NCBI GenBank assembly: GCA_045603965.1
Contig: JAZUND010000019.1
Location: 312 to 64,311, forward strand
From: Candidatus Nanosyncoccus sp.
Lineage (GTDB): Bacteria > Patescibacteriota > Saccharimonadia > Saccharimonadales > Saccharimonadaceae
DNA: 64,000 nt
Direction of reading: 5' to 3'
The notes under the pieces are model-generated. The model made no database searches, was not told the origin of the DNA, and saw only the letters and a program-made list of their open reading frames with translations. Positions 1 to 12,611 of the stretch are shown piece after piece. Numbering within the stretch: the stretch's first letter is position 1; each line of letters starts with the position of its first letter. The translations under genes were made by a program, and so were the position numbers.

Positions 1-274
1 CGAAATCTCGTTCCGTAAGCCGCGAATCGTATTGCACAGGATAATCCTTTATCCCCATCTCCATCAAAGCAATCCGGCAAGTTTCCTTCGCCCTTTCATA
101 AGGCGAACAATAAATCGCATCAAACCGCACACCAGCCTTTTTCAATCTCCGGCCAGCGTCCGCCGCCTGTACTCGACCCAAGGCAATCAACGGTTCCTTT
201 GAATCATCATAAAAATAATCCTTCGTATTACAAACCGCTCTGCCATGTCTCACATAATACAATGTGGTAGCCAT
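1..274 (-). CDS. Histidine phosphatase (PGM/GpmB-like) family protein, 5' part; runs off the left edge
   Basis: Manual translation from ATG 274: MATTLYYVRHGRAVCN...FDAIYCSPYERAKETC...DSRLTERDF, with the RHG motif, SPxxRA and L-x-E. SD AAAGGAG upstream. Not in the ORF track because it is truncated. Confidence 0.85.
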   Translation of the reverse strand, partial: MATTLYYVRHGRAVCNTKDYFYDDSKEPLIALGRVQAADAGRRLKKAGVRFDAIYCSPYERAKETCRIALMEMGIKDYPVQYDSRLTERDF

Positions 275-324
275 CTCTTTAAACTCTCCTTTCTTAAGGT
301 ACAAAAACCACCCTCTATAACTTC

Positions 325-353
325 ATTATATCACACTTTGGCATTTTTGTCAA
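325..353 (-). promoter_or_regulatory. Consensus sigma70 promoter for the histidine phosphatase gene
   Basis: - strand TTGACA-17 nt-TATAAT with extended TG, starting 11 nt after the lepA-fragment stop. Confidence 0.8.
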
Positions 354-363
354 TATAAACACT

Positions 364-912
364 CTAGGCTACCTTCCTTGGTGCCGGACCTCTCTCTACC
401 ACCGCATCCAGTATTCTCTCAATGTTTAGTCCGGTTTTTGCTGATACTCCAATAATATCTTCTCTTGCACATCCGAGCAAATTCATTATCTGTGCCGCCA
501 CGCCCTCAACATCTGCCGCTGGCAAGTCAATTTTATTTATCACCGGAATAATGGTCAGATCCTGTTCGATAGCCAAATATACATTCGCAAGTGTTTGCGC
601 CTGAATCCCCTGCGTGGCATCTACCACTAATACCGCCGATTCCACCGCCTGCAACGACCTCGACACCTCGTACGAAAAATCCACGTGTCCCGGTGTATCA
701 ATCAAATTCAAAGTATATCCCTTCCACTGCATCGTCACCGGTGTCAGCTTAATTGTGATACCCTTCTCACGCTCAAGTTCCATCGAATCAAGCAGCTGCT
801 CTTTCATCTCCCGCTTCTCTACCGTCCCCGTAAGTTCCATCATCCGATCAGCGATAGTCGACTTTCCGTGGTCAATATGTGCAATAATACAAAAATTTCT
901 AATCTTTTCCAT
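364..912 (-). pseudogene. lepA: Elongation factor 4 (LepA), N-terminal G domain only (182 aa): truncated or split gene
   Basis: [53 protein letters not shown]. Stops at GPAPRKVA*, where domain II normally starts. Confidence 0.85.
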
Positions 913-965
913 CTCTTATATTATATCAAAAAACTCCCCTTATGGAGAGTTTTCTGTTAAAACGT

Positions 966-3143
966 CTATTTCTCTACCCCAATCATGCTAAGTGACAGCT
1001 TCCCGTTATCTATCGCAACCAACCTCACACGTACTTTGTCACCCACATGGAGCACTTCTTCCACCTTCTTGAGTCGTCGGCCTTCCACAATTTGTGAAAT
1101 ATGAAGCATCCCGTCCACTCCTGGCATAATATTCACAAACGCGCCAAAATCCTTAATCGTCACCACCGTACCATTATAAATCTTCCCTACTTCCGGCTCT
1201 TCTACAAGTCCTTTAATCCATTCCACTGCCTTCGCAATTTTCTCTGGATCGTTACCAGATACCGTAACGAGACCCGAATCATCAATATCTACCCCAGCAC
1301 CAGTCTCAGTTGTAATCTTATTGATCGTCTCGCCACCCTTACCAATAATCATCCCGATTTTTTCTGGCTTCACCATAATCTTTTCAATCTGTGGCGCATA
1401 TTTTGAAATCTCCGCTCGTGGCTTATCAATCACTTCAAGAATATGTTTTAAGATGAACATTCTCCCCTCATGCGACTGTTTCAAAGCCTTTTCCATAATC
1501 TCCACTGGAAGCCCATGCACTTTCATATCCATCTGCAATGCCGTAATACCTTCCGTAGTACCAGTCACTTTGAAATCCATATCACCCGCAAAATCTTCCG
1601 CGTCCATAAGATCTGTCAGTACATAAGCTTTATCAATATCCGTAGCCTCAATTGGCGTCCCCTTTGGCACATCCACCATCAGCCCCATCGCCACACCAGA
1701 CACTGGCCGCTTCAACGGCACACCAGCATCCATGAGCGCCATACACGATGAACAAGTCGCCGCCATCGAAGTAGAACCATTCTGTGACATAATCTCCGTC
1801 ACCGAACGAATCGCATAAGGGAATTCTTCCTCAGAAGGAAGCACTGGCAGAAGCGCCCTCTCCGCCAAATATCCATGACCAATCTCCCGACGTCCCGGTG
1901 AACCAATCCGTCCAGGTTCACCCACCGTATAGGATGGCGCATTGTAATGATGCATATAACGACGTTTACCATCAGTTACTTCCATCGTATCCACCTCTTG
2001 CGCATAAGACAAAGGTGCCAAAGTCACGATATTCATTGCTTGCGTTACGCCACGCGTAAAGAGTGACGAACCATGCGCTCTCGGCAAAATCGAAACCTGT
2101 GACGACAGGGGTCTCACTTCTGTGAGTTTCCGACCATCCGGCCGTACACCTTCCTCCAAAATCCCCCGCCTTACTTCCTTATGTACAGCCAGCTCAAACG
2201 CCTGGTCATATACATCACGCAAATTCTCATCGTACCATTCTACCTTCTCATTATCAGTTTCACCCTCGCCGTGCTTCAGCGCCATCTCGTCGTGCATTGC
2301 ATACTTAATATCGTCAAGCACATGCGCTCTTTCCATCACGTTACCACGGATTTTCGAGCCAAACTTTCCCGCCGTCCATTCAGCCACTTCTTCCATCACT
2401 GCCTCATCAGGCAACACCAACTCATACTCCTGCGGTGTAGCTGCCACCTGTCGCGACAACTCTCTTTGCAAATCAAGCACCGGTTGCACATTCGCCACTG
2501 CCCAATGCATCGCTTCAATAATAGTTTCCTCTGGTACTTCTCTCGCACCAGCTTCCACCATCATCACCTTGCCATCCTTACAGGCCACCACGAGATCGAG
2601 TGGCGAAATCTCGCGTTCTTCTGGCGACAAAAAGCCTTTAAACTCACCACCAATTCTACCAATTCTTATCCCCGCCACTGGTCCATCAAATGGCACCCCG
2701 GCATTCATGAGAGCCGAAGAAGCCGCAATCATCGCCACACAATCTGGCCTAAACGATGGGTCCATCGAAAGCACCGTGCAGACTACCTGAATTTCCTGCC
2801 GGTAGCCCTTTGGAAACAAAGGGCGAATTGGCCGGTCAATTAGCCTCCCCACCAGCACTGCTTCATCCGCCGGCTTTCCCTCGCGTTTGATAAAGCGCGA
2901 AGACGAAATCTTTCCAGCCGCGTAATACTTCTCTTCATAATCAATAGAAAGCGGGAAGAAATCCTGCACCACTGGCTTCGTTCCCACTACCACCGACCCT
3001 AGCACCACGGTGTCGCCATAAGTTACGAGTACCGACGAAGTTGTCCTAAAACCCACTCGGTTGACTTCAAGCGTCAACTTACGTCCTAACCACTCCGTAG
3101 AAACCTGTATGGTTTTCTTACCGTTAGGATTAATAATATCCAT
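966..3143 (-). CDS. pnp: Polyribonucleotide nucleotidyltransferase (PNPase)
   Basis: RLIDRPIRPLFP, RPDGR, HGSSLFTRG, RREIGHG, NGSTSMA, GDMDFKV, KH and S1 domains. Confidence 0.97.
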   Translation of the reverse strand: MDIINPNGKKTIQVSTEWLGRKLTLEVNRVGFRTTSSVLVTYGDTVVLGSVVVGTKPVVQDFFPLSIDYEEKYYAAGKISSSRFIKREGKPADEAVLVGRLIDRPIRPLFPKGYRQEIQVVCTVLSMDPSFRPDCVAMIAASSALMNAGVPFDGPVAGIRIGRIGGEFKGFLSPEEREISPLDLVVACKDGKVMMVEAGAREVPEETIIEAMHWAVANVQPVLDLQRELSRQVAATPQEYELVLPDEAVMEEVAEWTAGKFGSKIRGNVMERAHVLDDIKYAMHDEMALKHGEGETDNEKVEWYDENLRDVYDQAFELAVHKEVRRGILEEGVRPDGRKLTEVRPLSSQVSILPRAHGSSLFTRGVTQAMNIVTLAPLSYAQEVDTMEVTDGKRRYMHHYNAPSYTVGEPGRIGSPGRREIGHGYLAERALLPVLPSEEEFPYAIRSVTEIMSQNGSTSMAATCSSCMALMDAGVPLKRPVSGVAMGLMVDVPKGTPIEATDIDKAYVLTDLMDAEDFAGDMDFKVTGTTEGITALQMDMKVHGLPVEIMEKALKQSHEGRMFILKHILEVIDKPRAEISKYAPQIEKIMVKPEKIGMIIGKGGETINKITTETGAGVDIDDSGLVTVSGNDPEKIAKAVEWIKGLVEEPEVGKIYNGTVVTIKDFGAFVNIMPGVDGMLHISQIVEGRRLKKVEEVLHVGDKVRVRLVAIDNGKLSLSMIGVEK

Positions 3144-3159
3144 AAAAATATCCTTTCTC

Positions 3160-3331
3160 GGGAAAACATCAGATACAGCCAGCCAAATCTGCTAATTATA
3201 CCCTGCCGAGGACCCTTTGCGACTAACGAGGAGCAACGGAGCAACCGAGCCCCATAACGATGGGCGCGAGGGAGCGCGTCCGAGGTGGGCATAATTAGCA
3301 GATTTAGCCACGTTATATCTGCCGTCTTCCC
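3160..3331 (-). promoter_or_regulatory. Long 5'-UTR hairpin of pnp (candidate RNase III/PNPase autoregulatory stem)
   Basis: Perfect 15-bp inverted repeat 3185-3199/3291-3305 plus outer pairing 3160-3184/3306-3331. The -10 (TG-G-TATAAT) is at 3350-3355. Confidence 0.6.
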
Positions 3332-3362
3332 TTTGTTAATGTTATCTTAATTATACCAAAGG

Positions 3363-3391
3363 TTGACTTTTTTGCCAAACTGTGCTATAAT
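3363..3391 (+). promoter_or_regulatory. Sigma70 promoter of orphan gene 3425-3748
   Basis: TTGACT-17 nt-TATAAT with extended TG. Confidence 0.75.
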
Positions 3392-3424
3392 AAGAGTAAG
3401 TTAGTCATTAAGGGGGGTAATAAA

Positions 3425-3748
3425 TTGATTAACATCATCCATAGCGAGACCCATTACAACGATAAGCGCAAAATTACCGCTATCGAGGTCAAGCTCAAGT
3501 ACTTTAAGAACGGAAATCAGGACACCGTGACCGATCATTCCTTAGTAACCACCGTTTCAGCGGCTTTTTACAAGACTACACTTCTTACCGACTCCGGGAG
3601 ATCTCTGAACACGTCCATAAATCCCAACCGCAGCGACATCGTCAATCTTGTCATTTTTCTCAAGAAAGACAACGACCTCACCTTTGTGGATGTTGGTCGT
3701 TTTCTCGACGCACTTCAAAAAGCCCTTGATGAAACCCCACTGTTCTAG
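3425..3748 (+). CDS. Hypothetical protein (107 aa), orphan cassette between pnp and rpsO
   Basis: TTG start, G-rich SD (AAGGGGGG), own promoter and downstream hairpin. Confidence 0.65.
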   Translation: MINIIHSETHYNDKRKITAIEVKLKYFKNGNQDTVTDHSLVTTVSAAFYKTTLLTDSGRSLNTSINPNRSDIVNLVIFLKKDNDLTFVDVGRFLDALQKALDETPLF

Positions 3749-3766
3749 CTCTGATTTTCGCACCAA

Positions 3767-3790
3767 AAACCCGCCATAACAGGCGGGTTT
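3767..3790. terminator. Bidirectional intrinsic terminator
   Basis: AAACCCGCC/GGCGGGTTT hairpin between convergent 3425-3748 and rpsO. Confidence 0.7.
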
Positions 3791-3818
3791 CTTCATATCA
3801 GGCATATTTTGCCAAAAT

Positions 3819-4085
3819 TTATTTCCTAAGTCCGAGCTTGGCAACAGTCTTCTTATATAGCTCAAAATCAGTCGTCTCAAGATATTTGAGAAGCTTCTTC
3901 CGCTTCCCAACCATCTGCATTAGACCTCTTTTAGCCATAAAGTCATGTTTATTATTCTTCACGTGCTCAGTCACTTCTTTGATGCGCTCCGTAAGAATAG
4001 CCACTTGAACTTCAGGAGAACCAACATCGTTCTTATTACGAGCGACCTTGGCAATAGCTTTATCCTTATTCTCTTTTGTTATCAT
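3819..4085 (-). CDS. rpsO: 30S ribosomal protein S15
   Basis: DVGSPEVQVAILTERI, HKHDF..KRGLMQMVGKRKKLLKYL, LGLRK. Confidence 0.97.
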   Translation of the reverse strand: MITKENKDKAIAKVARNKNDVGSPEVQVAILTERIKEVTEHVKNNKHDFMAKRGLMQMVGKRKKLLKYLETTDFELYKKTVAKLGLRK

Positions 4086-4151
4086 AGTAGACCCATTATA
4101 TCATCTCAAAGGCAAAAAGTAAACCCCCGCCTAAACGACGGGGGCTCAATA

Positions 4152-5153
4152 CTAATTCTCATAGATTTTTGTTCTTGGGGCAATTTCGTCGCCAGGCATT
4201 CCACCACGCTCATATGATTTGATGAATTTCCTTATCGGGATTTTTCTGCCTTTTCCAGTCCAATACGTCCTATAATGCCCAACTACCGCGTGCCTTCCTG
4301 GTGTCCTATGACTACCATTTTGCATTACGATTTCAACCTGACGGTCATCTGGCGGGATCAACCCATCAATGACAAATGCTGCGCCGGGGCCAGCGATATT
4401 TTCCTTTTCGCTACTCGTGAAAACTGTCTTCTCTTCAAGGATTTTATCACCAGAGACATACCCTGCCCTTTTATCGGTACTATCCACACCAAGTTTGACC
4501 TTCTTTACCTTAATTACTTCCGGACGACAATTATAAGTTGCTAAAAACAGAAACGCATGCCAGAAAAGGTTAATAAAATAAAGCGAATATGCATCATAAG
4601 CATATTCAGTCATACGCTTGCTTGACAAAGACACCATAGTATCATCATTAATCGGAAAATAATATGGTATCCCGTCCGCAATAGTCACTACATCGTATCT
4701 ACCTTCCCTCTTACAGACTATGTAGGCTATGCTGTGTCCATCATCCCTCGGATCGTCCAAATCCATCACTATCATCATCGCAGGAAACGGTAATTCAAGT
4801 TTCTCAAAAACAGGTCGCTCATGAATATAATTCTTAGTATAGCCATGTGCCACTGACTTCTTTACCACATATGTAATCCGCTCCTTCATCCATTCTCGCA
4901 AATTGCATTCCGCAAAAATGCAGGCTTCTATCTGATAAGTTTCCTCAGCAGATTTGCCGTAATCCCTACGGTATTTCTTTACATATTCGCCAATTGTCAT
5001 TCCGTGCCTTGCCGCGTCCATCGCGTAGTCATAATTACCATTGCCCGCTAAAATCTCCGCAAGAAAAGGAGTTGCACGAACAATTTTCATCCCTACCGAA
5101 TTTTCGGCGCCCACAACCTTTTTCTTGTTCCGACGGATTTCATTTTTCTTCAA
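4152..5153 (-). CDS. Hypothetical protein (333 aa), orphan cassette between truB and rpsO
   Basis: Long ORF with TTG start and SD AAAGGAG; promoter TTGACA-17-TATAAT at 5221-5249; CCCCCG/CGGGGG hairpin after the stop. Confidence 0.75.
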   Translation of the reverse strand: MKKNEIRRNKKKVVGAENSVGMKIVRATPFLAEILAGNGNYDYAMDAARHGMTIGEYVKKYRRDYGKSAEETYQIEACIFAECNLREWMKERITYVVKKSVAHGYTKNYIHERPVFEKLELPFPAMMIVMDLDDPRDDGHSIAYIVCKREGRYDVVTIADGIPYYFPINDDTMVSLSSKRMTEYAYDAYSLYFINLFWHAFLFLATYNCRPEVIKVKKVKLGVDSTDKRAGYVSGDKILEEKTVFTSSEKENIAGPGAAFVIDGLIPPDDRQVEIVMQNGSHRTPGRHAVVGHYRTYWTGKGRKIPIRKFIKSYERGGMPGDEIAPRTKIYEN

Positions 5154-5292
5154 CAGTCAAATCACTCCTTTCAAAATCTACAAAAACTCTTAAAAACCTA
5201 GCCGAAACGGCTCTACTATAATTATAGCACGCATATTGCATTTTGTCAATAGATGCCATTTACGATACGAAAAAATATGTTATAATAATGCA

Positions 5293-5976
5293 ATGAACGA
5301 AAACCAAATCATCTTAGTTGATAAACCCGCCGGCCTTTCTAGTTTCGGCGTCGTCGCCAAAGTCCGCGCTTATTTACGAGACGAATTCGGCCACAAAGTC
5401 AAAGTCGGCCACACCGGCACCCTGGACCCCTTCGCCACCGGCCTCCTCATCCTCCTCTCCGGTAAAATGACCAAGCGCTCCAACGAATTTCTAAAAAAAG
5501 ACAAAATCTATGAAGCCACATTAAAACTCGGCTGCACTTCCACCACCGGTGACCCAGAAGGACAAATCACACAAATTAATGATATCATCCCAAATCTAAA
5601 TCAAATTCAAAATATAACCAAAAAATTCATCGGTGTTATCAAACAAAAAGTTCCCACTTTCAGCGCTGTAAAAATTAACGGCGAAAGAGCTTACAAACTC
5701 GCCCGCGCCGGTAAAGTTTTCGAAACTCCAGAAAGAGCAATCACTATATATAATATAGAAATTTTAGAATATAGTTACCCCGAGCTCAAAATCCGTGTCC
5801 ATTGCAGCTCCGGCACCTACATCCGCACCCTCGCCGAGGACATCGGCAAGAGCCTCGGCACCGGCGCCTACCTCACTTCTCTCCGCCGCCTCCAAATCGG
5901 CGACTACGACCTCACCTCCGCCCACCCCCTCTCCGACTTCATCCCAAATTCCCCTGTTGACAACCATAAACACTAG
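5293..5976 (+). CDS. truB: tRNA pseudouridine(55) synthase TruB
   Basis: VDKPAGLSS, KVGHTGTLDPFATGLL, PTFSAVKINGERAYKLAR, CSSGTYIRTLAED. Start moved to ATG 5293, 6 nt after TATAAT (leaderless). Confidence 0.95.
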   Translation: MNENQIILVDKPAGLSSFGVVAKVRAYLRDEFGHKVKVGHTGTLDPFATGLLILLSGKMTKRSNEFLKKDKIYEATLKLGCTSTTGDPEGQITQINDIIPNLNQIQNITKKFIGVIKQKVPTFSAVKINGERAYKLARAGKVFETPERAITIYNIEILEYSYPELKIRVHCSSGTYIRTLAEDIGKSLGTGAYLTSLRRLQIGDYDLTSAHPLSDFIPNSPVDNHKH

Positions 5977-5985
5977 AAGTATAAT
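5957..5985 (+). promoter_or_regulatory. Perfect sigma70 promoter with no downstream + strand gene
   Basis: TTGACA(5957-5962)-17 nt-TATAAT(5980-5985), overlapping the truB stop. Confidence 0.75.
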
Positions 5986-5990
5986 TACAT

Positions 5991-6065
5991 TAACGGATAA
6001 GCCCTAGCTACTTATCCAAAATTGAGTTGCGGAATTACCATTCTACCCGAATGGTAATTTCTTTC
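5991..6065 (+). ncRNA. Candidate short antisense RNA
   Basis: Follows the perfect promoter. Hairpin GGATAAG/CTTATCC, then terminator-like AATTACCATTC/GAATGGTAATT plus U's. Complementary to the 3' end of small ORF 6035-6109. Confidence 0.5.
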
Positions 6066-6109
6066 CTAAATAATCGCACTGCTAGTGCGAAAACAAACCG
6101 TCTTCTCAT
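6035..6109 (-). CDS. Small protein, 24 aa (MRRRFVFALAVRLFRKEITIRVEW)
   Basis: Strong SD AGGAGG 10 nt before the ATG; promoter TTGCAA-18-TATAAT at 6270-6299; about 150-nt structured leader. Confidence 0.55.
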   Translation of the reverse strand: MRRRFVFALAVRLFRKEITIRVEW

Positions 6110-6386
6110 TTGCAGTACTCCTCCTATTAATTAACTTAATAAATAATTGGAGGCTTAACGACCATAATCACGACTAGGATAGATTATATAAAGCCTCCTC
6201 GCGATAATTAGCGTGCGAGACCCACGCCCAGACTTTATACTAGATTAGAAACTCCGCCAACCCGCGCATATTATATGCACGCTCCACTCACCATTGCAAC
6301 CCCCTACCTCCAAAAACTTAGGCATAACCACAAACCAAATTAGCAAAAACATATTGTTTCTTGCAATCACACCGTACAAAACACAC

Positions 6387-7340
6387 TTATTTCTTTGCAA
6401 CGGCACTCAGCACATAATGCCCACTATCTTTCACGAATGTCATAGCGTAAACCGGTATTCTTCCGACAAAATTACCAATCAAATCACGCATGTTATACTG
6501 ATCAATCGAACTCACTATTCCACCAGGAAATTCAATATTCAAACAATACCCATCATTCTCATTTGCACCACATGTAGGAACAGTATCATGATAAACTCCC
6601 ACAATCACATTTTCGCCATCGTATCTGGCACTCTCCACCACATCAAACATAGCAGTACCCGCACCGCCAATACCACTACTCACGACCTCAAATGTTTCAT
6701 AACCATCACTGGCTCTATTTTTATACAAAAACTTCACATTCTGTGCTTGATAATCCTTTTTCTCTATATTCTCGCCACTACCAAATAAATTCTTATATTC
6801 GCTGTTAATTTCATTATAGGAGACTTCCGGATTTTCGCCACTTCCTGAACCAAACAACTCACGCTCTAAATTTCGGTACGCAAGATAAACTTTAGTATCT
6901 TCGCTAAAACCAAGATTAAGAATATTATTATAATAGCCAATCATTTTGATGTACGGATTGATTAAATTCTGCGCTAAGCCATTATCAATATGATTATCGG
7001 CGATATTTATTATGGCTTCATCTTCTGTTGGTCCTTTTTCCTCACTTAGCTTCCCCGCCAGCTCCTCATTTTGTTTTTTCAGTTCATCCACCTGCTGATT
7101 TGCAACATCCACTTTCTTGTTCGCATCCGCCACCTGATTATTCCCGTCAAGCATCGCCCACACGCCAAATCCAATCCCACCAAGCGCCACAATCGCTAGC
7201 ACAATCAAGCCAATTAGCATTCCACTATTCTTCGTCTTCATGTCTTTTGTCATTGCGCCACCCTCATCATTTCCTGTTGTGTTCGCATTTACCGTTTCCA
7301 TCGTTTCACCACTATTTATTTTTTTATCTCCAGTTTCCAT
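6387..7340 (-). CDS. Single-pass membrane-anchored surface protein with coiled coil, unknown function
   Basis: Hydrophobic helix GMLIGLIVLAIVALGGIGFGVWAM followed by heptad repeats; SD AGAAAGG. Confidence 0.8.
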   Translation of the reverse strand: METGDKKINSGETMETVNANTTGNDEGGAMTKDMKTKNSGMLIGLIVLAIVALGGIGFGVWAMLDGNNQVADANKKVDVANQQVDELKKQNEELAGKLSEEKGPTEDEAIINIADNHIDNGLAQNLINPYIKMIGYYNNILNLGFSEDTKVYLAYRNLERELFGSGSGENPEVSYNEINSEYKNLFGSGENIEKKDYQAQNVKFLYKNRASDGYETFEVVSSGIGGAGTAMFDVVESARYDGENVIVGVYHDTVPTCGANENDGYCLNIEFPGGIVSSIDQYNMRDLIGNFVGRIPVYAMTFVKDSGHYVLSAVAKK

Positions 7341-7403
7341 ACAAAACCTTTCTAATCAGACTTATTTTTTTATTATAATACCACAAGCCAAAACCATTAA
7401 TAC

Positions 7404-7546
7404 AAAAATGGCACCGCAAGGGTGAAACACTTTAATCACGACATCAAGGCTGACATACGTAATCAAGAACCTTCCGGTGCCAACATTCCGTACGTCAACA
7501 ATACTAAATAAAAGTACCTTGATTCTCAATGATTAAAGTGTTTCAC
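7404..7546 (-). ncRNA. Structured RNA family, copy 1 (about 143 nt)
   Basis: Promoter TTGCGG-17-TATAAT (7552-7580). 17-bp perfect stem 7530-7546/7422-7438. Conserved 3' end CACCCTTGCGGTGCCATTTTTG. Confidence 0.65.
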
Positions 7547-7594
7547 TTACCATTATATATTGAAAAAACATTCTCCGCAAGCTATAATTTAATT

Positions 7595-8203
7595 ATGTTA
7601 ATTACTGCCAGCCATTTAATCGGCACTCCAGTTCTCAGTATGCAAGCCGCCAGCGCCGTCGGCCAAGTCTCAGCCATCATCGTCGACCCCACCAGTTTTC
7701 AAATTATTGCCTTCTATCTAATCGGTCCCGGCATCGACAAGTCCACCAATATCTTAGACTCTAAATCCATCCGCGAATACTCTAGCTTAGGCATGGTCAT
7801 AGATTCCACCGACGAGCTCGTCGCTCCCACCGACGTCGTTAAAATCAGCAAGGCCATCGCACTAAATTTCAGCCTCATTGGTCTCAAAGTTGAGACCAAA
7901 AAAGGCTCCAAGCTTGGTCGCGTTATTGATTTTACCGTCACCAACGACAATTTCAGCATTCAGCAAATCATCGTCAAACGTCCACTCGTCAAAAGCTTTT
8001 CCGATCCAGAACTTACCATTCCTCGTCACGAAATCGCTGAAATCACCGACACTAAAGTTATCGTCAAAGACGAAGAGGACGTCATTCGCAAAAAAGCCGC
8101 CAAAGAAGATTTCATCCCAAATTTCGTTAATCCATTTCGGAAGTCAGAACAAGCTCACGCACCAGCTCATACGGAAACCCCTGCCGACATAGATATTGAA
8201 TAA
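7595..8203 (+). CDS. PRC-barrel domain protein
   Basis: Two PRC-barrel-like units (LIGTPV...VGQVSAIIVDP; LIGLKVETKKGSKLGRVIDF). Start moved to ATG 7595, 6 nt after TATAAT. Confidence 0.75.
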   Translation: MLITASHLIGTPVLSMQAASAVGQVSAIIVDPTSFQIIAFYLIGPGIDKSTNILDSKSIREYSSLGMVIDSTDELVAPTDVVKISKAIALNFSLIGLKVETKKGSKLGRVIDFTVTNDNFSIQQIIVKRPLVKSFSDPELTIPRHEIAEITDTKVIVKDEEDVIRKKAAKEDFIPNFVNPFRKSEQAHAPAHTETPADIDIE

Positions 8204-8747
8204 GTTTCTCATCTGTATATTTCGCGCGTTTTTTTGTAATCATCTTACGAATTTCATCTTCATCATTCCGTTCGGACTCTTTCAATATCGCGTCAATGGC
8301 TTCTTTCACGATACCTTTTTTCATTAACTCCATTCGGAGCCTTTTCGCCGACACTCCTTTTTTCACAAACCGATTCTCCACATACCATTCTGCGAATTTT
8401 TGATCATCCAAATACCCACGCGAATAAAACTTTTCAATCGTATCATCAATAAAACCCGAAGAAGGTTGCCTAAGCTTATTTTTCAAATACTCTCTAGTCT
8501 CTTTCTCACTTCTAGGCCTCGTAAGCACCCATTCCAACGCTCTCTGATATATCTTCCCGAACTCACTCTCCTGCCTCAATTGCGCCAGCTCGCTATCATC
8601 AATTATCTTTCCAACCTTTACACCTAAATCCACCACTTGCGCCACGCTCAAAGAAAAAGCATATTCATTATTCACATACACATTCACTCGTTCTGGATTC
8701 TTCACTCCAGATTTCAAATTGGTAATCACCAGTTTATAAATATCCAT
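8127..8747 (-). CDS. recX: Regulatory protein RecX
   Basis: RPRSEKE, GYLDDQKFAEWY, SAKRLRMELMKKGI, KLIQYLCRQGF; downstream of recA. Confidence 0.88.
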   Translation of the reverse strand: MDIYKLVITNLKSGVKNPERVNVYVNNEYAFSLSVAQVVDLGVKVGKIIDDSELAQLRQESEFGKIYQRALEWVLTRPRSEKETREYLKNKLRQPSSGFIDDTIEKFYSRGYLDDQKFAEWYVENRFVKKGVSAKRLRMELMKKGIVKEAIDAILKESERNDEDEIRKMITKKRAKYTDEKLIQYLCRQGFPYELVRELVLTSEMD

Positions 8748-9291
8748 TTTGGCGAAACCATTCTTCTAGTAATGCAAAAGTTAACTTGTCTTTTTTAAGT
8801 GGGGATTTGGCAAACTTTATCCTAAATTCTTCCGTCTCTTCAAATGGCACCCATCGCACCTCGCTTACCTCCGCGTCATCAAAGTGGAATGTCTCCGGTC
8901 TTCCAGTCCAATCCACCGCATAAATCCACGCAAAACGATTCTTATTAAATGCTCGCTCTGTCACAAATCTCAAATCACCCGCCACAATCTCCGCGCCAAT
9001 CTCTTCGCGCGTTTCTCGCACCGCCGCTTCCGCCAACGTTTCACCAAGATTGATATGACCACCCGCCGATATGTCGTAATCACCAGGGTACCTATCTATT
9101 TTGTCAGATCTTCTCTGCCACAAAAGCTCCAGCACGCCATCACTAGACCACCGAAATAGAAACACTACCGCCACCCCCACAATCGCGTCTGCACCAGTTT
9201 TTTCCGGATTATCTAGTGCTGCATCCCACCCTTCACCAGGAATCGCCTCTCCATTCGGCGCATACACTTGCCACATTTCATCCTTATGCAT
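8734..9291 (-). CDS. NUDIX hydrolase (type 1 IDI-like subfamily)
   Basis: QRRSDKIDRYPGDYDISAGGH plus Nudix box GETLAEAAVRETREEIG. Confidence 0.85.
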   Translation of the reverse strand: MHKDEMWQVYAPNGEAIPGEGWDAALDNPEKTGADAIVGVAVVFLFRWSSDGVLELLWQRRSDKIDRYPGDYDISAGGHINLGETLAEAAVRETREEIGAEIVAGDLRFVTERAFNKNRFAWIYAVDWTGRPETFHFDDAEVSEVRWVPFEETEEFRIKFAKSPLKKDKLTFALLEEWFRQNGYL

Positions 9292-9313
9292 GAACCTTAA
9301 GCTCCTTCAATTT

Positions 9314-10348
9314 CTAGGCTTCTGCTGATGCTTTTTCGCGCACCTTCGCCTCAATCTCCGCCATCAACTCTGGTTTTTCGCGGAACAACTTCTTCACCGC
9401 TTCACGTCCTTGTCCTAGTGTCTCACCATTGTATTTAATAAATGCGCCGGCTTTTTCGAGTACACCATATTGAACACCAAGATCCAATACATCACCAGAT
9501 TTCGAAATACCCTCATTATACATAATGTCAAATTCTGCTGTTCTAAATGGCGCCGCAATTTTATTTTTCACCACTTTAATCTTCGTCCGATTCCCGGCGA
9601 TATTCTCACCATCCTTAATCTGCCCAATTCGACGAATATCCACCCTTACTGACGCGTAAAACTTCAGTGCATTACCACCCGTAGTTGTCTCCGGATTTCC
9701 AAACATCACTCCAATTTTCATCCGAATCTGGTTAATAAATATCACCGTCGCCCGTGACTTTGAAATAATGCCCGTCAGCTTCCGCATCGCTTGCGACATC
9801 AGCCGTGCCTGAAGACCCATCTGCGCATCACCCATATCACCATCGATTTCCGCTTGTGGTACCAACGCCGCCACCGAATCCACCACAATTAAGTCCACTG
9901 CATTAGAGCGCACCAAAGTCTCACAAATTTCCAAAGCCTGCTCGCCATTATCGGGCTGAGAAATCAACAAATCTGCCGTGTTCACACCAATTTTCTTCGC
10001 ATAAGCTGGATCTAGCGCATGTTCCGCATCAATAAACGCCGCCTGTCCACCCTGCTTCTGAATCTCCGCAATCGCATGAAGCGCAAGCGTTGTCTTACCT
10101 GATGATTCCGGCCCATAAATTTCTATAATACGACCTTTTGGCCAACCACCGCCAAGCGCCAAATCAAGCGACAGCGATCCAGACGGCAAAAGTTCCACAT
10201 CCATTTTTGGCGTCTCGCCAAGTTTCATAATAGAACCATCACCAAACTGCTTCGTAATCTGTGCTATTGCAAGTTTCAAGGCCTCACTCTTGCCATCATT
10301 CTTCCCGCCGTCGTTAGTTTTTTCTTCCACCGCATCCTTTTTTGCCAT
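9314..10348 (-). CDS. recA: Recombinase RecA
   Basis: [59 protein letters not shown]. Confidence 0.99.
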
Positions 10349-10443
10349 ATCGTATTACCTTTCTTTTCTATTGACAATTATATTATATTTTATAAAATGA
10401 AGATAGGATTGATTTTTCCAATCTTGTATGGTAGAATCAGTTT

Positions 10444-10492
10444 AAGGTTATTTCGAAATCTCTTCAGCTTCTTGCCGAGGAGATTTCTTTTT
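10444..10492 (+). ncRNA. Candidate short antisense RNA
   Basis: Promoter TTGATT(10409-14)-17-TAGAAT(10432-37); hairpin GAAATCTC/GAGATTTC followed by TTTTT; antisense to small ORF 10448-10537. Confidence 0.4.
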
Positions 10493-10537
10493 AAATTTGA
10501 TAATGATGTAATCAAGATCTAATTCTAGCTCACCCAT
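10448..10537 (-). CDS. Small protein, 29 aa (MGELELDLDYIIIKFKKKSPRQEAEEISK)
   Basis: SD AAAGGAGG directly upstream; promoter TTGCAA-17-TAAAAG at 10595-10623. Confidence 0.5.
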   Translation of the reverse strand: MGELELDLDYIIIKFKKKSPRQEAEEISK

Positions 10538-10752
10538 AACCCTCCTTTCTTCTGACCACATTTTTAAAATTGCACCATCCTATCTTCTGCCGCTCTTTTA
10601 CCACATCAAAATCGCAATTGCAACCCTACACCACTATAAATATTTCTCATGCTTTATTTACTAATTCTTATGGCAAAAACATTCATGCTCATGTTTATAT
10701 CTATCAACCTTAAGTTTTAATTTCTCACCCATTGATGTTATAATTATATAAT

Positions 10753-11832
10753 ATGATTATTCGTAAGAATGTTCCCTTATCAGAACTTACTACTATGCGA
10801 CTTGGCGGCCCCGCACGCTTTTTGATTGAAATCGAATCTGCAAGCGAAGCAGCCGAAGCCCACAAATTTGCCATCACCCACAACTTACCATATTATATTC
10901 TCGGCGGTGGCGCCAACACTATCGCGAAAGACGAAGGTTTCAATGGCGCCATTATCAGGAACATTATGACGGGTATTATAGCGGGGCGGGTGACGAACTT
11001 GGAAGGGGTTCCACGGAGCACCCAAAGGGTGGGGCCGTGGGAAGGAAAAGTCCGGCAGGACCCGCTCCACATAATAACTGTTCTAGGTGGCACCAAGTGG
11101 GACGACGTTGTCGCTTATGCTTGCAACCATAATCTCACCGGTATCGAAGCTCTCAGTAAAATCCCCGGTCTCGCCGGCGCCGCTCCGGTTCAAAACATCG
11201 GCGCCTACGGCCAAGAAATTGCCGACACTTTCATCTCCGCCGAAGCCTACGACTTCAAACGTCGCACTTATTGCACATTAGATAAACATGATTTCGGCTT
11301 TGCATATCGCAAATCAATTCTCAACACCACCGAAAAACAACGCTATCTAATTCTAAGCATCACTTTATCACTTCGCGAAGGCGAAATGCCTCGTCCTTTC
11401 TATAATTCCATTGAATCCTACATCAAAGACCACCACGAAACCGATTTCACTCCACAAAATATCCGCAAAATCGTCAGCACCATCCGCGCCGACAAATTGC
11501 CTGACCCTACCACCACGTCTAGCGCCGGATCATTCTTCAAGAATATCTACCTGACGCCAAAAGAAGCCGAAAAAGCCGAAGCAGAAGGCATCCCTGTCCA
11601 TCACGGTCACGATGGCCTTAAAATTAACTCTGGCTGGCTCATTGAACAAGCCGGTCTCAAAGGCAAATTACTGCACGGTTTTCGCATCAGCGATAAAGCC
11701 GCCCTCGTCCTCATCAACGAGTCCGCCAGCTCATATCAAGATCTCGTTGCTGCTCGCACCGAAATCATCGACACCGTTCAAGCCAAATTCGGCTTTAAAC
11801 TCTCACAAGAGCCCATGGAGTTACCACTATGA
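10753..11832 (+). CDS. murB: UDP-N-acetylmuramate dehydrogenase MurB, with an in-frame palindromic insertion
   Basis: TTMRLGGPA, LGGGAN, IPGLAGAAPVQNIGAYG, FAYRKS, SAGSFFKN, ALVLIN, LSQEP. Confidence 0.93.
   Translation: MIIRKNVPLSELTTMRLGGPARFLIEIESASEAAEAHKFAITHNLPYYILGGGANTIAKDEGFNGAIIRNIMTGIIAGRVTNLEGVPRSTQRVGPWEGKVRQDPLHIITVLGGTKWDDVVAYACNHNLTGIEALSKIPGLAGAAPVQNIGAYGQEIADTFISAEAYDFKRRTYCTLDKHDFGFAYRKSILNTTEKQRYLILSITLSLREGEMPRPFYNSIESYIKDHHETDFTPQNIRKIVSTIRADKLPDPTTTSSAGSFFKNIYLTPKEAEKAEAEGIPVHHGHDGLKINSGWLIEQAGLKGKLLHGFRISDKAALVLINESASSYQDLVAARTEIIDTVQAKFGFKLSQEPMELPL
10974..11076. repeat. G-rich palindromic element inside murB
   Basis: Nested inverted repeats: TATTAT/ATAATA, GGGGCGGGT/ACCCGCTCC, TTCCACGG/CCGTGGGAA, CACCC/GGGTG. 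Confidence 0.6.
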
Positions 11833-12611
11833 AAATCTTAAACGGTAGCGAACTGGCCGGTTTCATCAAAGAACGTCAAGCCCATCAAGTCGCCACAATG
11901 AAAAAAAAGCCCACCCTTCTCATCCTTCGCGACAACGACGACCCAGTCATCAACAAATACGTCACATTAAAACAACATTATGGCGAGGACATCGGCATCA
12001 AAGTCACAGATTACGTCGCAAATAGCACCGACACACTCCAAAAAGAACTCATTCGCGCAAGCAATGACTCGACAATTAGCGGCATCATTATTCAACTTCC
12101 TCTCACCGATAAGACCCAGACCGACGCCCTCTGCAATCTCATCGCCCCAGAAAAAGACGTTGATGGTCTCGGCATCCATAGTCATTACGATTCCGCCACC
12201 GCTACCGCCATCCTTTGGCTCCTTGCCGGCTACGACATCAATCTAAACGACAAGAAAATCGCCCTCGTCGGTCACGGCAAACTCGTTGGCAAACCCTTAG
12301 AAAAAATGCTCACAAACTCCCACTACCAAATAACCGTTTTTCATAAAGGCGATGACTTGACAAAACTTAACCAGTATGATATCATCATTACAGCCACCGG
12401 CGTTCCGGGGTTGATTTCTAGTTCCCTAGTCAAACCAGGCGCCGTTCTTGTAGATGCTGGCACCGCCTCCGAAGACGGTGTTATCAAAGGCGATGCCTCG
12501 GACGACCTACGCGCCCGCACCGATCTCACCGCCATTACCCCATTAAAAGGTGGCGTTGGTCCCATTACCGTCACTTGTCTCTTTGAACACGTCATACAAG
12601 CAGCCAATTAA
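11829..12611 (+). CDS. folD: Methylenetetrahydrofolate dehydrogenase/cyclohydrolase FolD family
   Basis: GIIIQLPL, PEKDVDG, GKLVGKPL, DIIITATG, VDAG, ITPLKGGVGPITV. Confidence 0.9.
   Translation: MKILNGSELAGFIKERQAHQVATMKKKPTLLILRDNDDPVINKYVTLKQHYGEDIGIKVTDYVANSTDTLQKELIRASNDSTISGIIIQLPLTDKTQTDALCNLIAPEKDVDGLGIHSHYDSATATAILWLLAGYDINLNDKKIALVGHGKLVGKPLEKMLTNSHYQITVFHKGDDLTKLNQYDIIITATGVPGLISSSLVKPGAVLVDAGTASEDGVIKGDASDDLRARTDLTAITPLKGGVGPITVTCLFEHVIQAAN

What the first reader, a model, noticed from the sequence alone, without database searches (positions are those of the whole stretch)
5957..6299. Type I toxin-antitoxin-like locus hidden after truB: 24-aa ORF plus convergent antisense RNA
Seen in sequence, - strand: promoter TTGCAA-18-TATAAT, an about 150-nt leader, SD AGGAGG, then MRRRFVFALAVRLFRKEITIRVEW*. 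The leader holds a CCTCC that can pair either with an upstream GGAGG (hairpin about 6149-6199) or with the real SD, an anti-SD / anti-anti-SD arrangement. On the + strand a perfect TTGACA-17-TATAAT has no gene to drive. It yields an about 75-nt two-hairpin RNA whose terminator overlaps the last codons of the ORF. Established: convergent 3'-overlapping antisense RNA plus a translationally occluded long leader is the TxpA/RatA and Fst/RNAII architecture. Inference: a new family, since the peptide is amphipathic and basic with alternating hydrophobic residues rather than a classic TM helix.
Basis: partly seen in the sequence, partly recalled or inferred. Interest (0 to 1): 0.7.

Follow-up and report, generated by a model that had tools for sequence, protein, structure and literature searches.

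The report
Antisense-guarded mini-protein gene cassette
The gap after truB holds a real, conserved, multi-copy cassette of ruminant-gut Saccharibacteria (a 24-residue peptide gene with a long self-folding leader, facing a ~74-nt antisense RNA gene) that is built like a type I toxin-antitoxin pair, although its peptide looks unlike known type I toxins and its toxicity is untested.

Summary
The 410-nt gap between truB and a convergent membrane-protein gene is filled by a stand-alone module of about 390 bp.

- **Minus strand:** promoter, a 154-nt structured leader, a Shine-Dalgarno site (SD, the ribosome-binding site) and a 24-codon ORF.
- **Plus strand:** a perfect convergent promoter and a two-hairpin RNA of about 74 nt. 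Its terminator lies over the last ORF codons.

A covariance model of the antisense part finds the module in 111 of 369 genomes of the same genus (ruminant-gut 'Ca. Nanosyncoccus'-type Saccharibacteria). There are up to 7 copies per genome, some in tandem, and none in 298 genomes of 216 other genera of the order.

The ORF is under purifying selection (pN/pS about 0.1-0.3, frame kept through 3n indels). All 16 full copies keep the convergent promoter, and both antisense hairpins covary.

New here: the mRNA 5' end pairs with the stretch just after the stop codon, and a leader motif pairs with the 3' hairpin loop. Decayed copies lose the ORF or its promoter but keep the antisense gene.

There is no Rfam, Pfam or NCBIfam match. 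The peptide has no transmembrane segment. Transcription and toxicity could not be tested.

The parts
6300..6345 (-). Conserved block upstream of the -35 (GGTTATGCC...GGGGG); left edge of the module; function unknown
   Evidence: The alignment of 15 copies loses conservation about 25 nt upstream of the -35.
6270..6299 (-). Promoter of the peptide mRNA, TTGCAA-18-TATAAT
   Evidence: The hexamers are conserved in all copies while the spacer diverges.
6110..6263 (-). 154-nt 5' leader. Elements: e 6263-6250 (GGGUUGGCGGAGUU); a 6241-6230; b 6200-6186 (GGAGG at 6198-6194); x 6179-6173 (UCCUAGU); c 6156-6149 (AAGCCUCC, the anti-SD); SD 6125-6118
   Evidence: Duplex energies in this copy are a:b -12.3, b:c -14.9 and c:d -9.8 kcal/mol. 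The probability that the SD is unpaired is 0.01.
6035..6109 (-). 24-codon ORF, MRRRFVFALAVRLFRKEITIRVEW, plus stop
   Evidence: Purifying selection: pN/pS 0.04/0.29 against the nearest copy, and all four CGN Arg codons at codon 4. Family alignment.
6074..6090 (-). Hairpin inside the ORF (UCGCAC-UAGCA-GUGCGA) followed by UUAUUUAGG; terminator-like; role unknown
   Evidence: It is kept in subfamily A with a compensatory change to UCGUAC...GUACGA.
6024..6036 (-). Site f: stretch just after the stop codon that pairs with the mRNA 5' end (element e)
   Evidence: RNAduplex gives -17.0 kcal/mol, z -3.65. The pairing is present in the MFE fold. Compensatory changes occur in other copies.
5995..6017 (.). 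Hairpin H1 (GGAUAAG / CUUAUCC) with a loop containing CUAG; it forms in both transcripts
   Evidence: All 6 pairs show changes on both sides across 42 distinct copies.
5957..5985 (+). Perfect promoter of the antisense RNA, TTGACA-17-TATAAT. The truB stop codon (5974-5976) lies in its spacer
   Evidence: A convergent promoter scoring 9-12 of 12 sits at the same place in 16 of 16 full copies.
5992..6065 (+). Predicted antisense RNA of about 74 nt: H1, single-stranded spacer AAAAUUGAGUUGCGG, then terminator hairpin 6033-6043/6049-6059 and U-tract
   Evidence: The covariance model R1 scores window 5955-6079 at 92 bits.
6154..6180 (-). 27-nt piece of the leader repeated exactly at G000:C25:16601-16627
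   Evidence: It is part of the conserved subfamily-A leader.

Best explanation
**What it is.** This is one copy of a selfish, multi-copy, stand-alone gene pair built and regulated like a type I toxin-antitoxin system.

**The peptide mRNA.** The - strand makes an mRNA of roughly 280 nt or more for a 24-residue basic peptide. Three features appear to keep this mRNA closed:
- The SD is paired with an upstream CCUCC (c:d). This is favoured when the competing GGAGG (b) is held by an earlier segment (a:b).
- The 5' end GGGUUGG... pairs with the stretch just after the stop codon (e:f).
- A leader motif (UCCUAGU) pairs with the loop of the 3' hairpin H1.

**The antisense RNA.** The + strand makes a ~74-nt antisense RNA from a consensus promoter. 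It is fully complementary to the last 9-10 codons and the 3' UTR. It would seed on the H1 loop or the CCAAC-like spacer and form a duplex of about 70 bp. The genome's RNase III would then cut the duplex, so peptide synthesis is prevented while the antisense RNA is made.

**Shown and inferred.**
- Shown: the elements, their conservation, coding selection, covariation, copy number and distribution.
- Inferred: transcription of both RNAs, the order of folding events, RNase III cleavage, and above all that the peptide is harmful to the cell.
For: **A real family.**
- A homologous module sits at other genomic sites.
- The 5'-end pattern gives 25 hits in 18 of 369 genomes and 0 for the reversed control.
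- The covariance model R1 hits 111 of 369 genomes of the genus, with up to 7 copies and tandem arrays. It hits 0 of 298 genomes of 216 other genera.

**The ORF is coding.**
- pN/pS is about 0.1-0.3, variation is highest at third codon positions, and all four CGN codons occur at one Arg position.
- The frame is kept in 24-40-residue variants.

**The antisense gene.**
- The convergent promoter is present in 16 of 16 full copies, 41-60 nt from the stop codon.
- Its hairpins are paired in 94.5% of cells, against 79% in shuffles and 26-50% in slid controls. There are 120 cells with a change on both sides against 39 expected.

**A closed mRNA.**
- The probability that the SD is unpaired averages 0.19, against 0.37 in 57 ordinary genes of this genome.
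- SD and anti-SD co-vary.
- The 5'-3' pairing has mean z -1.9 and is -17 kcal/mol in the window. There is a U-A to C-G compensation in L069 and L096, and a rescue through G-U pairs only in L072.

**Decay is one-sided.**
- Of 19 complete copies found through their 5' end, 2 lost the ORF and none lost the antisense gene.
- Other copies are 5'-truncated, but these came from the antisense-based search.
- The genome's own second copy (C27) lost the mRNA -10, the 5' end and leader elements. It keeps the ORF and the antisense gene, compared with a ~99% identical orthologous locus.

**Other support.** RNase III is present in the genome. Published type I systems use the same devices of SD sequestration, 5'-3' locking and 3'-overlapping antisense RNA (PMC5416894, PMC6733600, PMC8309996).
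Against:
- The peptide is hydrophilic to mildly hydrophobic. Its longest uncharged run is 5-7 residues, with GRAVY -0.86 to +0.65. It therefore fails the hallmark of nearly all small type I toxins.
- SD occlusion is only moderately stronger than in ordinary genes. It does not change in thermodynamic models when the antisense target is masked.
- The 5'-3' pairing is individually significant in only 14 of 27 copies.
- Part of the C-terminal peptide conservation (KK-V/I-T...) is confounded with the U-tract and stem of the antisense terminator.
- No convincing terminator for the full-length mRNA was found in the window's subfamily. The only terminator-like site on the - strand is inside the ORF.
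- The one-sided decay pattern rests on small numbers.
Confidence: 0.6

Rival explanations
1. This is a non-toxic mini-protein gene under antisense control. The 24-28-residue basic peptide would have a regulatory or structural role, for instance binding nucleic acid or the ribosome. The antisense RNA would simply tune its level, and there would be no addiction or toxin logic.
For: The peptide lacks any transmembrane segment and is partly acidic at its C-terminus in the largest subfamily. Purifying selection fits any functional protein. Toxicity is untested.
Against: The module is present in only 30% of species of one genus. Copy number varies from 0 to 7, with tandem arrays, many positions and frequent decayed copies. 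That fits a selfish or defence-type element better than a housekeeping regulator. The layered translational locks are typical of genes whose product must not be made.
Confidence: 0.25
2. The RNAs are the functional products. The ~74-nt RNA, the structured - strand RNA, or both would act in trans on other targets, and the small ORF would be secondary or a dual-function add-on.
For: RNA structure is strongly conserved on both strands. Orphan antisense genes persist after ORF loss. The C-terminal codons coincide with the terminator hairpin.
Against: Synonymous changes are in excess and the reading frame is kept outside the hairpins too. The SD and start codon are conserved in 27 of 27 full copies. 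No second complementary target was found in the genome beyond a 27-nt remnant.
Confidence: 0.1
3. This is chance, or ordinary punctuation. The hairpins would just be the truB terminator, and the promoters and ORF would be accidental.
For: The terminator hairpin at 6033-6059 is also correctly placed to end truB transcripts.
Against: The same module occurs at unrelated loci without truB. Perfect promoters are about 40-fold enriched over chance in this genome. In relatives truB is followed within 7-73 nt by other genes, with no such element.
Confidence: 0.01

Closest known systems
Convergent, 3'-overlapping type I toxin-antitoxin systems of Bacillus subtilis: bsrG/SR4, txpA/RatA, bsrE/SR5, yonT/SR6 (PMC8309996, PMC5848175; details partly from my own knowledge)
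   Same: The toxin gene and the antisense RNA gene face each other and overlap at their 3' ends. Pairing at the 3' end leads to RNase III-dependent decay, and for SR4 also to translation inhibition. The modules are stand-alone with their own promoters.
   Different: No sequence or model match. Those toxins are 38-59-residue hydrophobic membrane peptides, whereas this peptide has 24-28 residues and no hydrophobic stretch. Here the mRNA also closes 5' to 3'. The host phylum is Patescibacteria, not Firmicutes.
hok/Sok (plasmid R1) and aapA1/IsoA1 (Helicobacter pylori) (PMC5416894, PMC6733600)
   Same: A long, highly folded toxin mRNA whose SD is sequestered. A long-distance 5'-3' interaction keeps the full-length transcript inert. 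Successive alternative helices are present.
   Different: In those systems the antisense RNA overlaps the 5' part of the mRNA, and 3' trimming activates it. Here the antisense RNA covers the 3' end itself, including the site that binds the 5' end. The toxins there are membrane peptides.
par locus of pAD1 (Fst mRNA RNA I / RNA II), Enterococcus faecalis (from my own knowledge)
   Same: Convergent transcripts that share a terminator region. The peptide is small (33 residues) and the module is compact.
   Different: Fst regulation relies on direct repeats that pair at the 5' end near the start codon. In the window's subfamily the antisense loop is identical to the leader motif, not complementary to it. 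Fst is hydrophobic.
Cytosolic type I toxins SymE/SymR and RalR/RalA (PMC8309996)
   Same: Type I systems whose toxin is not a membrane peptide.
   Different: Those toxins are larger folded nucleases (about 60-110 residues, from my own knowledge). No similarity was found.

Membership tests
Type I toxin-antitoxin system (general definition) | The antitoxin is a small antisense RNA that base-pairs with the toxin mRNA | tested here: met
   A convergent promoter and terminator define a ~74-nt RNA complementary to the ORF 3' end and 3' UTR. It is conserved in 16 of 16 full copies and its hairpins covary. This rests on sequence only; expression was not seen.
Type I toxin-antitoxin system (general definition) | The small protein is toxic when expressed, and the RNA neutralises it | not testable with these tools
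   This needs an expression experiment. The only indirect hint is one-sided decay: the ORF or its promoter is lost while the antisense gene is kept.
Type I toxin-antitoxin system (general definition) | Both RNAs are transcribed | not testable with these tools
Promoter quality and conservation are the only support.
Type I toxin-antitoxin system (general definition) | The toxin mRNA is folded so that the ribosome-binding site is sequestered | tested here: met
   In the window copy the probability that the SD is unpaired is 0.01. The family mean is 0.19 against 0.37 for control genes. SD and anti-SD co-vary. The effect size is moderate.
Membrane-associated type I toxins (Hok, Fst/Ldr, TxpA, BsrG, Ibs, TisB, AapA classes) | A hydrophobic peptide of under 60 residues with a predicted transmembrane helix (PMC8309996) | tested here: not met
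   The longest uncharged run is 5-7 residues, and the highest 15-residue hydropathy is 1.14 in the window peptide and at most 1.59 in the family. Two AlphaFold runs on the 40-residue outlier were of low to moderate confidence and not decisive.
Membrane-associated type I toxins (Hok, Fst/Ldr, TxpA, BsrG, Ibs, TisB, AapA classes) | Sequence membership in a described toxin family | tested here: not met
   No Pfam or NCBIfam family matches five representative peptides at E up to 10.
Described antitoxin or toxin-mRNA RNA families in Rfam (for example Sok, RatA, par RNA II, SR4-type) | A match to the covariance model | tested here: not met
   No relevant Rfam hit in 5700-6700 at E up to 10 on either strand. 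Nothing but tRNAs reaches the gathering score in the window.
Housekeeping structured RNAs (RNase P RNA) | A model match at this locus | tested here: not met
   I considered this because of a GUAUAAAGUCUGGGC stretch. The genome's RNase P RNA is on another contig at 235 bits.

The most novel reading that the evidence does not exclude
This would be the first type I toxin-antitoxin family of the Patescibacteria (CPR). Its effector would be a new class of soluble, basic mini-toxin of 24-28 residues with no membrane helix. Its mRNA would combine a hok/aapA-style 5'-3' lock with a Bacillus-style 3'-overlapping antisense RNA that targets exactly the locking site. The cassettes spread and decay within one genus of ruminant-gut episymbionts, and they might serve in phage defence or in stabilising genome segments.
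Probability: 0.4. Interest if true: 0.75.

Novelty: new variant of a known kind. Interest (0 to 1): 0.62.

Why it matters
[quoted passage not shown] No paper in the searchable library links type I systems with Saccharibacteria.

**What a confirmed system would add.**
- It would extend RNA-antitoxin biology to ultrasmall episymbionts with genomes of about 0.8 Mb.
- It would show that these genomes still afford selfish RNA-controlled cassettes.
- It would add a non-membrane mini-toxin whose target is unknown.

**Practical points.**
- The family gives a clean natural data set of more than 200 copies for studying how mRNA 5'-3' locking and antisense targeting co-evolve.
- It flags genes that annotation pipelines miss, because the ORFs are under 30 codons.

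Tried and rejected
- **RNase P RNA.** I considered a reduced RNase P RNA because of an AAAGUCUGGGC / AGGGCUUAUCC resemblance. Rejected: the real RNase P RNA is on contig C39.
- **Rfam.** At E up to 10 it gave only noise.
- **BLAST of the gap.** A search against 60 relatives gave almost nothing. One weak hit (G013) opened the family.
- **Exact-protein look-ups.** Look-ups of truB and the neighbouring gene found nothing on record.
- **Metagenome scan.** A scan with truB found no same-species contig; the best identity was 75%.
- **The 27-nt repeat.** It is absent from the representative genomes.
- **Peptide tblastn.** Noise only.
- **Whole-mRNA RNAalifold.** Run across subfamilies it recovered only two helices, because the alignment is poor in the variable hairpin.
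- **Masking the antisense target.** This did not change predicted SD accessibility, so I do not claim an SR4-like allosteric effect.
- **AlphaFold.** The 40-residue outlier gave helices at pLDDT 79 when run alone, and a helix plus coil at pLDDT 66 with the family alignment. This is too weak to decide between helix and the beta-hairpin suggested by the alternating residues.
- **Phage and viral searches.** No phage record and no viral contig carries the module or its 5' motif.

Full report
**Setting**

The window is contig C19 of a 0.8-Mb, 99%-complete genome. Its relatives are ruminant-gut Candidatus Saccharibacteria MAGs, some labelled Ca. Nanosyncoccus. The finding lies in the 410-nt gap between truB (5236/5293..5976, +; Pfam TruB_N) and a convergent gene for a 317-residue membrane-anchored protein (6387..7340, -). 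In relatives truB is followed within 7-73 nt by rpsO, a PRC-barrel gene or recX. Positions 5977-7528 are therefore extra in this genome.

**Observation**

- Both promoters are present: TTGCAA-18-TATAAT at 6299..6270 on the - strand and a 12-of-12 TTGACA-17-TATAAT at 5957..5985 on the + strand.
- Perfect promoters occur 27 times in the genome against 0.7 expected.
- The - strand RNA would start near 6263. It carries a 154-nt leader, the SD AGGAGGAG (6125-6118) and the 24-codon ORF 6109..6035.
- The + strand RNA (about 5992-6065) has two hairpins. The second is a terminator (6033-6043/6049-6059 plus TTTCTTT) lying over the last ORF codons.
- Both strands fold far better than shuffles (z -4.8 and -5.4).
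- In the minimum-free-energy fold the CCUCC at 6153-6149 pairs with the SD, and the 5' end pairs with the stretch just after the stop codon.
- Rfam has nothing here. The genome's RNase P RNA, which I briefly suspected, lies elsewhere.

**It is a family**

A weak nhmmer/BLAST hit in genome G013 turned out to be a complete homologous module at an unrelated locus. It has the same promoter hexamers with a diverged spacer, the same 5' end, and a leader hairpin with compensatory stem changes. It also has an SD, a 28-codon ORF and a convergent TTGACT-18-TATAAT promoter that drives a two-hairpin RNA with a clean terminator.

- A 31-nt pattern from the -10 and the RNA 5' end found 25 sites in 18 of 369 genomes of the genus. 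The reversed control found none. There were up to three sites per genome, often at contig ends.
- All 16 full-length copies share the whole layout.
- A covariance model of the antisense part (R1) finds 111 of 369 genomes of the genus at E <= 0.001. There are up to 7 copies per genome, with tandem arrays such as three copies within 3 kb in G324.
- The same model finds nothing in 298 genomes of 216 other genera of the order.
- Module edges are about 25 nt upstream of the mRNA -35 and at the antisense -35, which gives about 390-420 bp.
- No phage record or viral contig carries the module.

**The ORF is a gene**

The peptides fall into three subfamilies:
- MRRRFVFALAVRLFRKEITIRVEW-like (the window's subfamily);
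- MFIEFNFVFRFGSKTKKITIRIEW-like;
- MEIECYFHFKFVRKSKNKKVTVVVEDEQ-like.

They align with the consensus MEIEFxFxFxRKPKxKKVTxVVExx. Length differences are in whole codons.

Within subfamilies pN is 0.02-0.12 and pS is 0.07-0.51, and variable sites peak at third codon positions. The four subfamily-A copies use CGG, CGT, CGC and CGA at the same Arg codon.

One caution applies. The last ~12 codons also encode the U-tract and stem of the antisense terminator, so that part is under double constraint.

No Pfam or NCBIfam family matches. The peptides have no run of more than 7 uncharged residues. AlphaFold on the only member long enough (40 residues) was not decisive.

**The antisense gene is conserved**

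A convergent promoter scoring 9-12 of 12 lies 41-60 nt beyond the stop codon in 16 of 16 full copies. On 42 distinct copies the two hairpins are paired in 94.5% of cells. The corresponding figures are 79.4% in shuffles and 26-50% when the partners are slid. There are 120 cells with changes on both sides against 39 expected, and all six pairs of hairpin H1 show compensatory changes. These helices form on both strands, so this supports structure but not one strand in particular.

**How the mRNA seems to be locked (inference from sequence)**

*(i) Three competing helices in the leader.*
- a:b has -12 to -18 kcal/mol.
- b:c has -12 to -16 kcal/mol.
- c:d, which is anti-SD with SD, has -5 to -11 kcal/mol.
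- If a holds b, then c is free to close the SD.
- SD and anti-SD change together: GGAGA goes with UCUCC, and GGAGG goes with CCUCC.
- The predicted probability that the SD is unpaired averages 0.19, and is 0.01 in the window copy. It is 0.37 for 57 ordinary genes with a GGAGG SD in the same genome.

*(ii) The mRNA 5' end GGGUUGG(A/C)G... pairs with a CCAACC-like stretch directly after the stop codon.*
- The mean z is -1.9, and 14 of 27 copies have p < 0.05.
- The window copy gives -17.0 kcal/mol with z -3.65.
- In L069 and L096 the 5' end reads GGGUCGG and the partner carries G where the others carry A.
- In L072 fourteen pairs are kept through five G-U pairs. G-U pairs work only at the RNA level on this strand.
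- L081 is an exception.

*(iii) The leader motif N-CUAG-N pairs with the loop of the mRNA's 3' hairpin H1.*
- The flanking bases co-vary between subfamilies: C-CUAG-U with A/G-CUAG-G, against U-CUAG-A with U-CUAG-A/G (sequences).
- In the window's subfamily the antisense loop is identical to the leader motif, not complementary to it.
- The contact is therefore within the mRNA.

The antisense RNA is complementary to both 3' partner sites (f and the H1 loop). It would compete with these locks while forming a ~70-bp duplex. RNase III is encoded in the genome. Masking the antisense target did not alter SD accessibility in the thermodynamic model. I therefore propose decay rather than an allosteric translation block as the main effect.

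This combines devices known from aapA1/IsoA1 and hok/Sok (5'-3' locking and SD sequestration; PMC5416894, PMC6733600) with the 3'-overlap layout of bsrG/SR4 and its relatives (PMC8309996, PMC5848175).

**Decay pattern**

- Of 19 complete copies found through their 5' end, 17 have both the ORF and the antisense gene. Two have lost the SD and ORF start by internal deletion but keep the antisense gene. None has lost the antisense gene.
- Among copies found by the covariance model there are further 5'-truncated copies with only the antisense gene, one frameshift and one lost stop codon. The search method biases that set.
- The genome's own second copy (C27, about 2430-2760) is about 99% identical in its flanks to G013:C51. 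It has lost the mRNA -10, the 5' end and elements a and b, while the ORF and the antisense gene are intact.
- The exact 27-nt repeat on contig C25 is a piece of a subfamily-A leader and probably a remnant of another copy.
- One-sided loss of the peptide side is what a toxin-antitoxin model predicts, but the numbers are small.

**Comparison and novelty**

The module works like a type I toxin-antitoxin system of the 3'-overlap class. It is not a member of any described toxin or antitoxin family. It fails the transmembrane-helix criterion of the small membrane toxins.

The library holds no paper that links type I systems with Saccharibacteria. [quoted passage not shown]

Earlier notes of this scan describe the same kind of cassette in other Saccharibacteria genomes. 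I read them after reaching my own reading. They are not independent evidence, and sequence look-ups linked none of them to this copy.

**Limits**

There are no toxicity data. The 3' end of the mRNA in the window's subfamily is unknown, and the only terminator-like site on the - strand is inside the ORF at 6090-6074.

**Verdict**

- The toxin function is likely but unproven: I put it at 0.6, against 0.25 for a non-toxic antisense-controlled mini-protein.

Noticed in passing
G000:C27:2430-2760 (locus L089, match 1501-1627): This is a second copy of the module in the same genome, from another subfamily (peptide MEIECDFHFKLVRKPKTKKVTLVVEDEG). The ORF and the antisense gene are intact. The mRNA -10, 5' end and leader elements are deleted relative to the ~99% identical orthologous locus G013:C51.
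   Followed up: yes
G000:C25:16601-16627 (locus L005, 1501-1527): An exact 27-nt copy of leader positions 6180..6154 lies 54 nt after the stop codon of a 437-residue surface protein gene. It is followed by ACTAGGA, which can pair with its own TCCTAGT, and by GTCAAGATT, like the module's right edge. It is probably a decayed subfamily-A copy.
   Followed up: partly
window 6074-6090 (- strand): A hairpin inside the ORF is followed by UUAUUUAGG, and it is the only terminator-like site on the - strand. It is kept in subfamily A with a compensatory C-G to U-A change. It could end most sense transcripts before the stop codon.
   Followed up: partly
window 5950-5976: The last 7-11 or so truB codons (about ...NSPVDNHKH) are not matched in relatives, and they run into the module. 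The truB stop codon sits in the spacer of the antisense promoter. truB read-through would carry the whole antisense sequence as its 3' UTR and end at the antisense terminator.
   Followed up: partly
window 5977-7528: Relative to other genomes of the genus, the module, the 317-residue membrane protein gene and that gene's leader are extra between truB and the PRC-barrel gene. rpsO lies upstream in the opposite orientation instead of downstream of truB.
   Followed up: partly
window 6300-6345 and the same place in loci L003, L055-L074: A conserved block (AAAACGCTTATGC ... TTTT ... GGGGG) lies just upstream of the mRNA -35. It is not a conserved ORF. It may be an UP element or a binding site.
   Followed up: no
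loci L003, L057, L058, L063, L073, L074 (around the antisense -10): In two subfamilies a palindrome of about 13 bp encloses the antisense -10, for example CCTTGCCACTATTATACGATAGTGGCAAGG, and keeps its symmetry through compensatory changes. It is absent from the window's subfamily. It may be the 3' hairpin of the sense mRNA or an operator.
   Followed up: no
G324:C1:165028-167827; G144:C9:8119-8673; G192:C26:9431-9727: These are tandem arrays of two or three modules.
   Followed up: no
window 1-12000: GC skew is strongly negative on the + strand whatever the coding strand (about -0.2 to -0.5).
   Followed up: no
The covariance model R1 does not match it: the model's only hit in the window at E <= 1e-5 is 5955-6079. 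If it is real, it belongs to a different family.
   Followed up: partly
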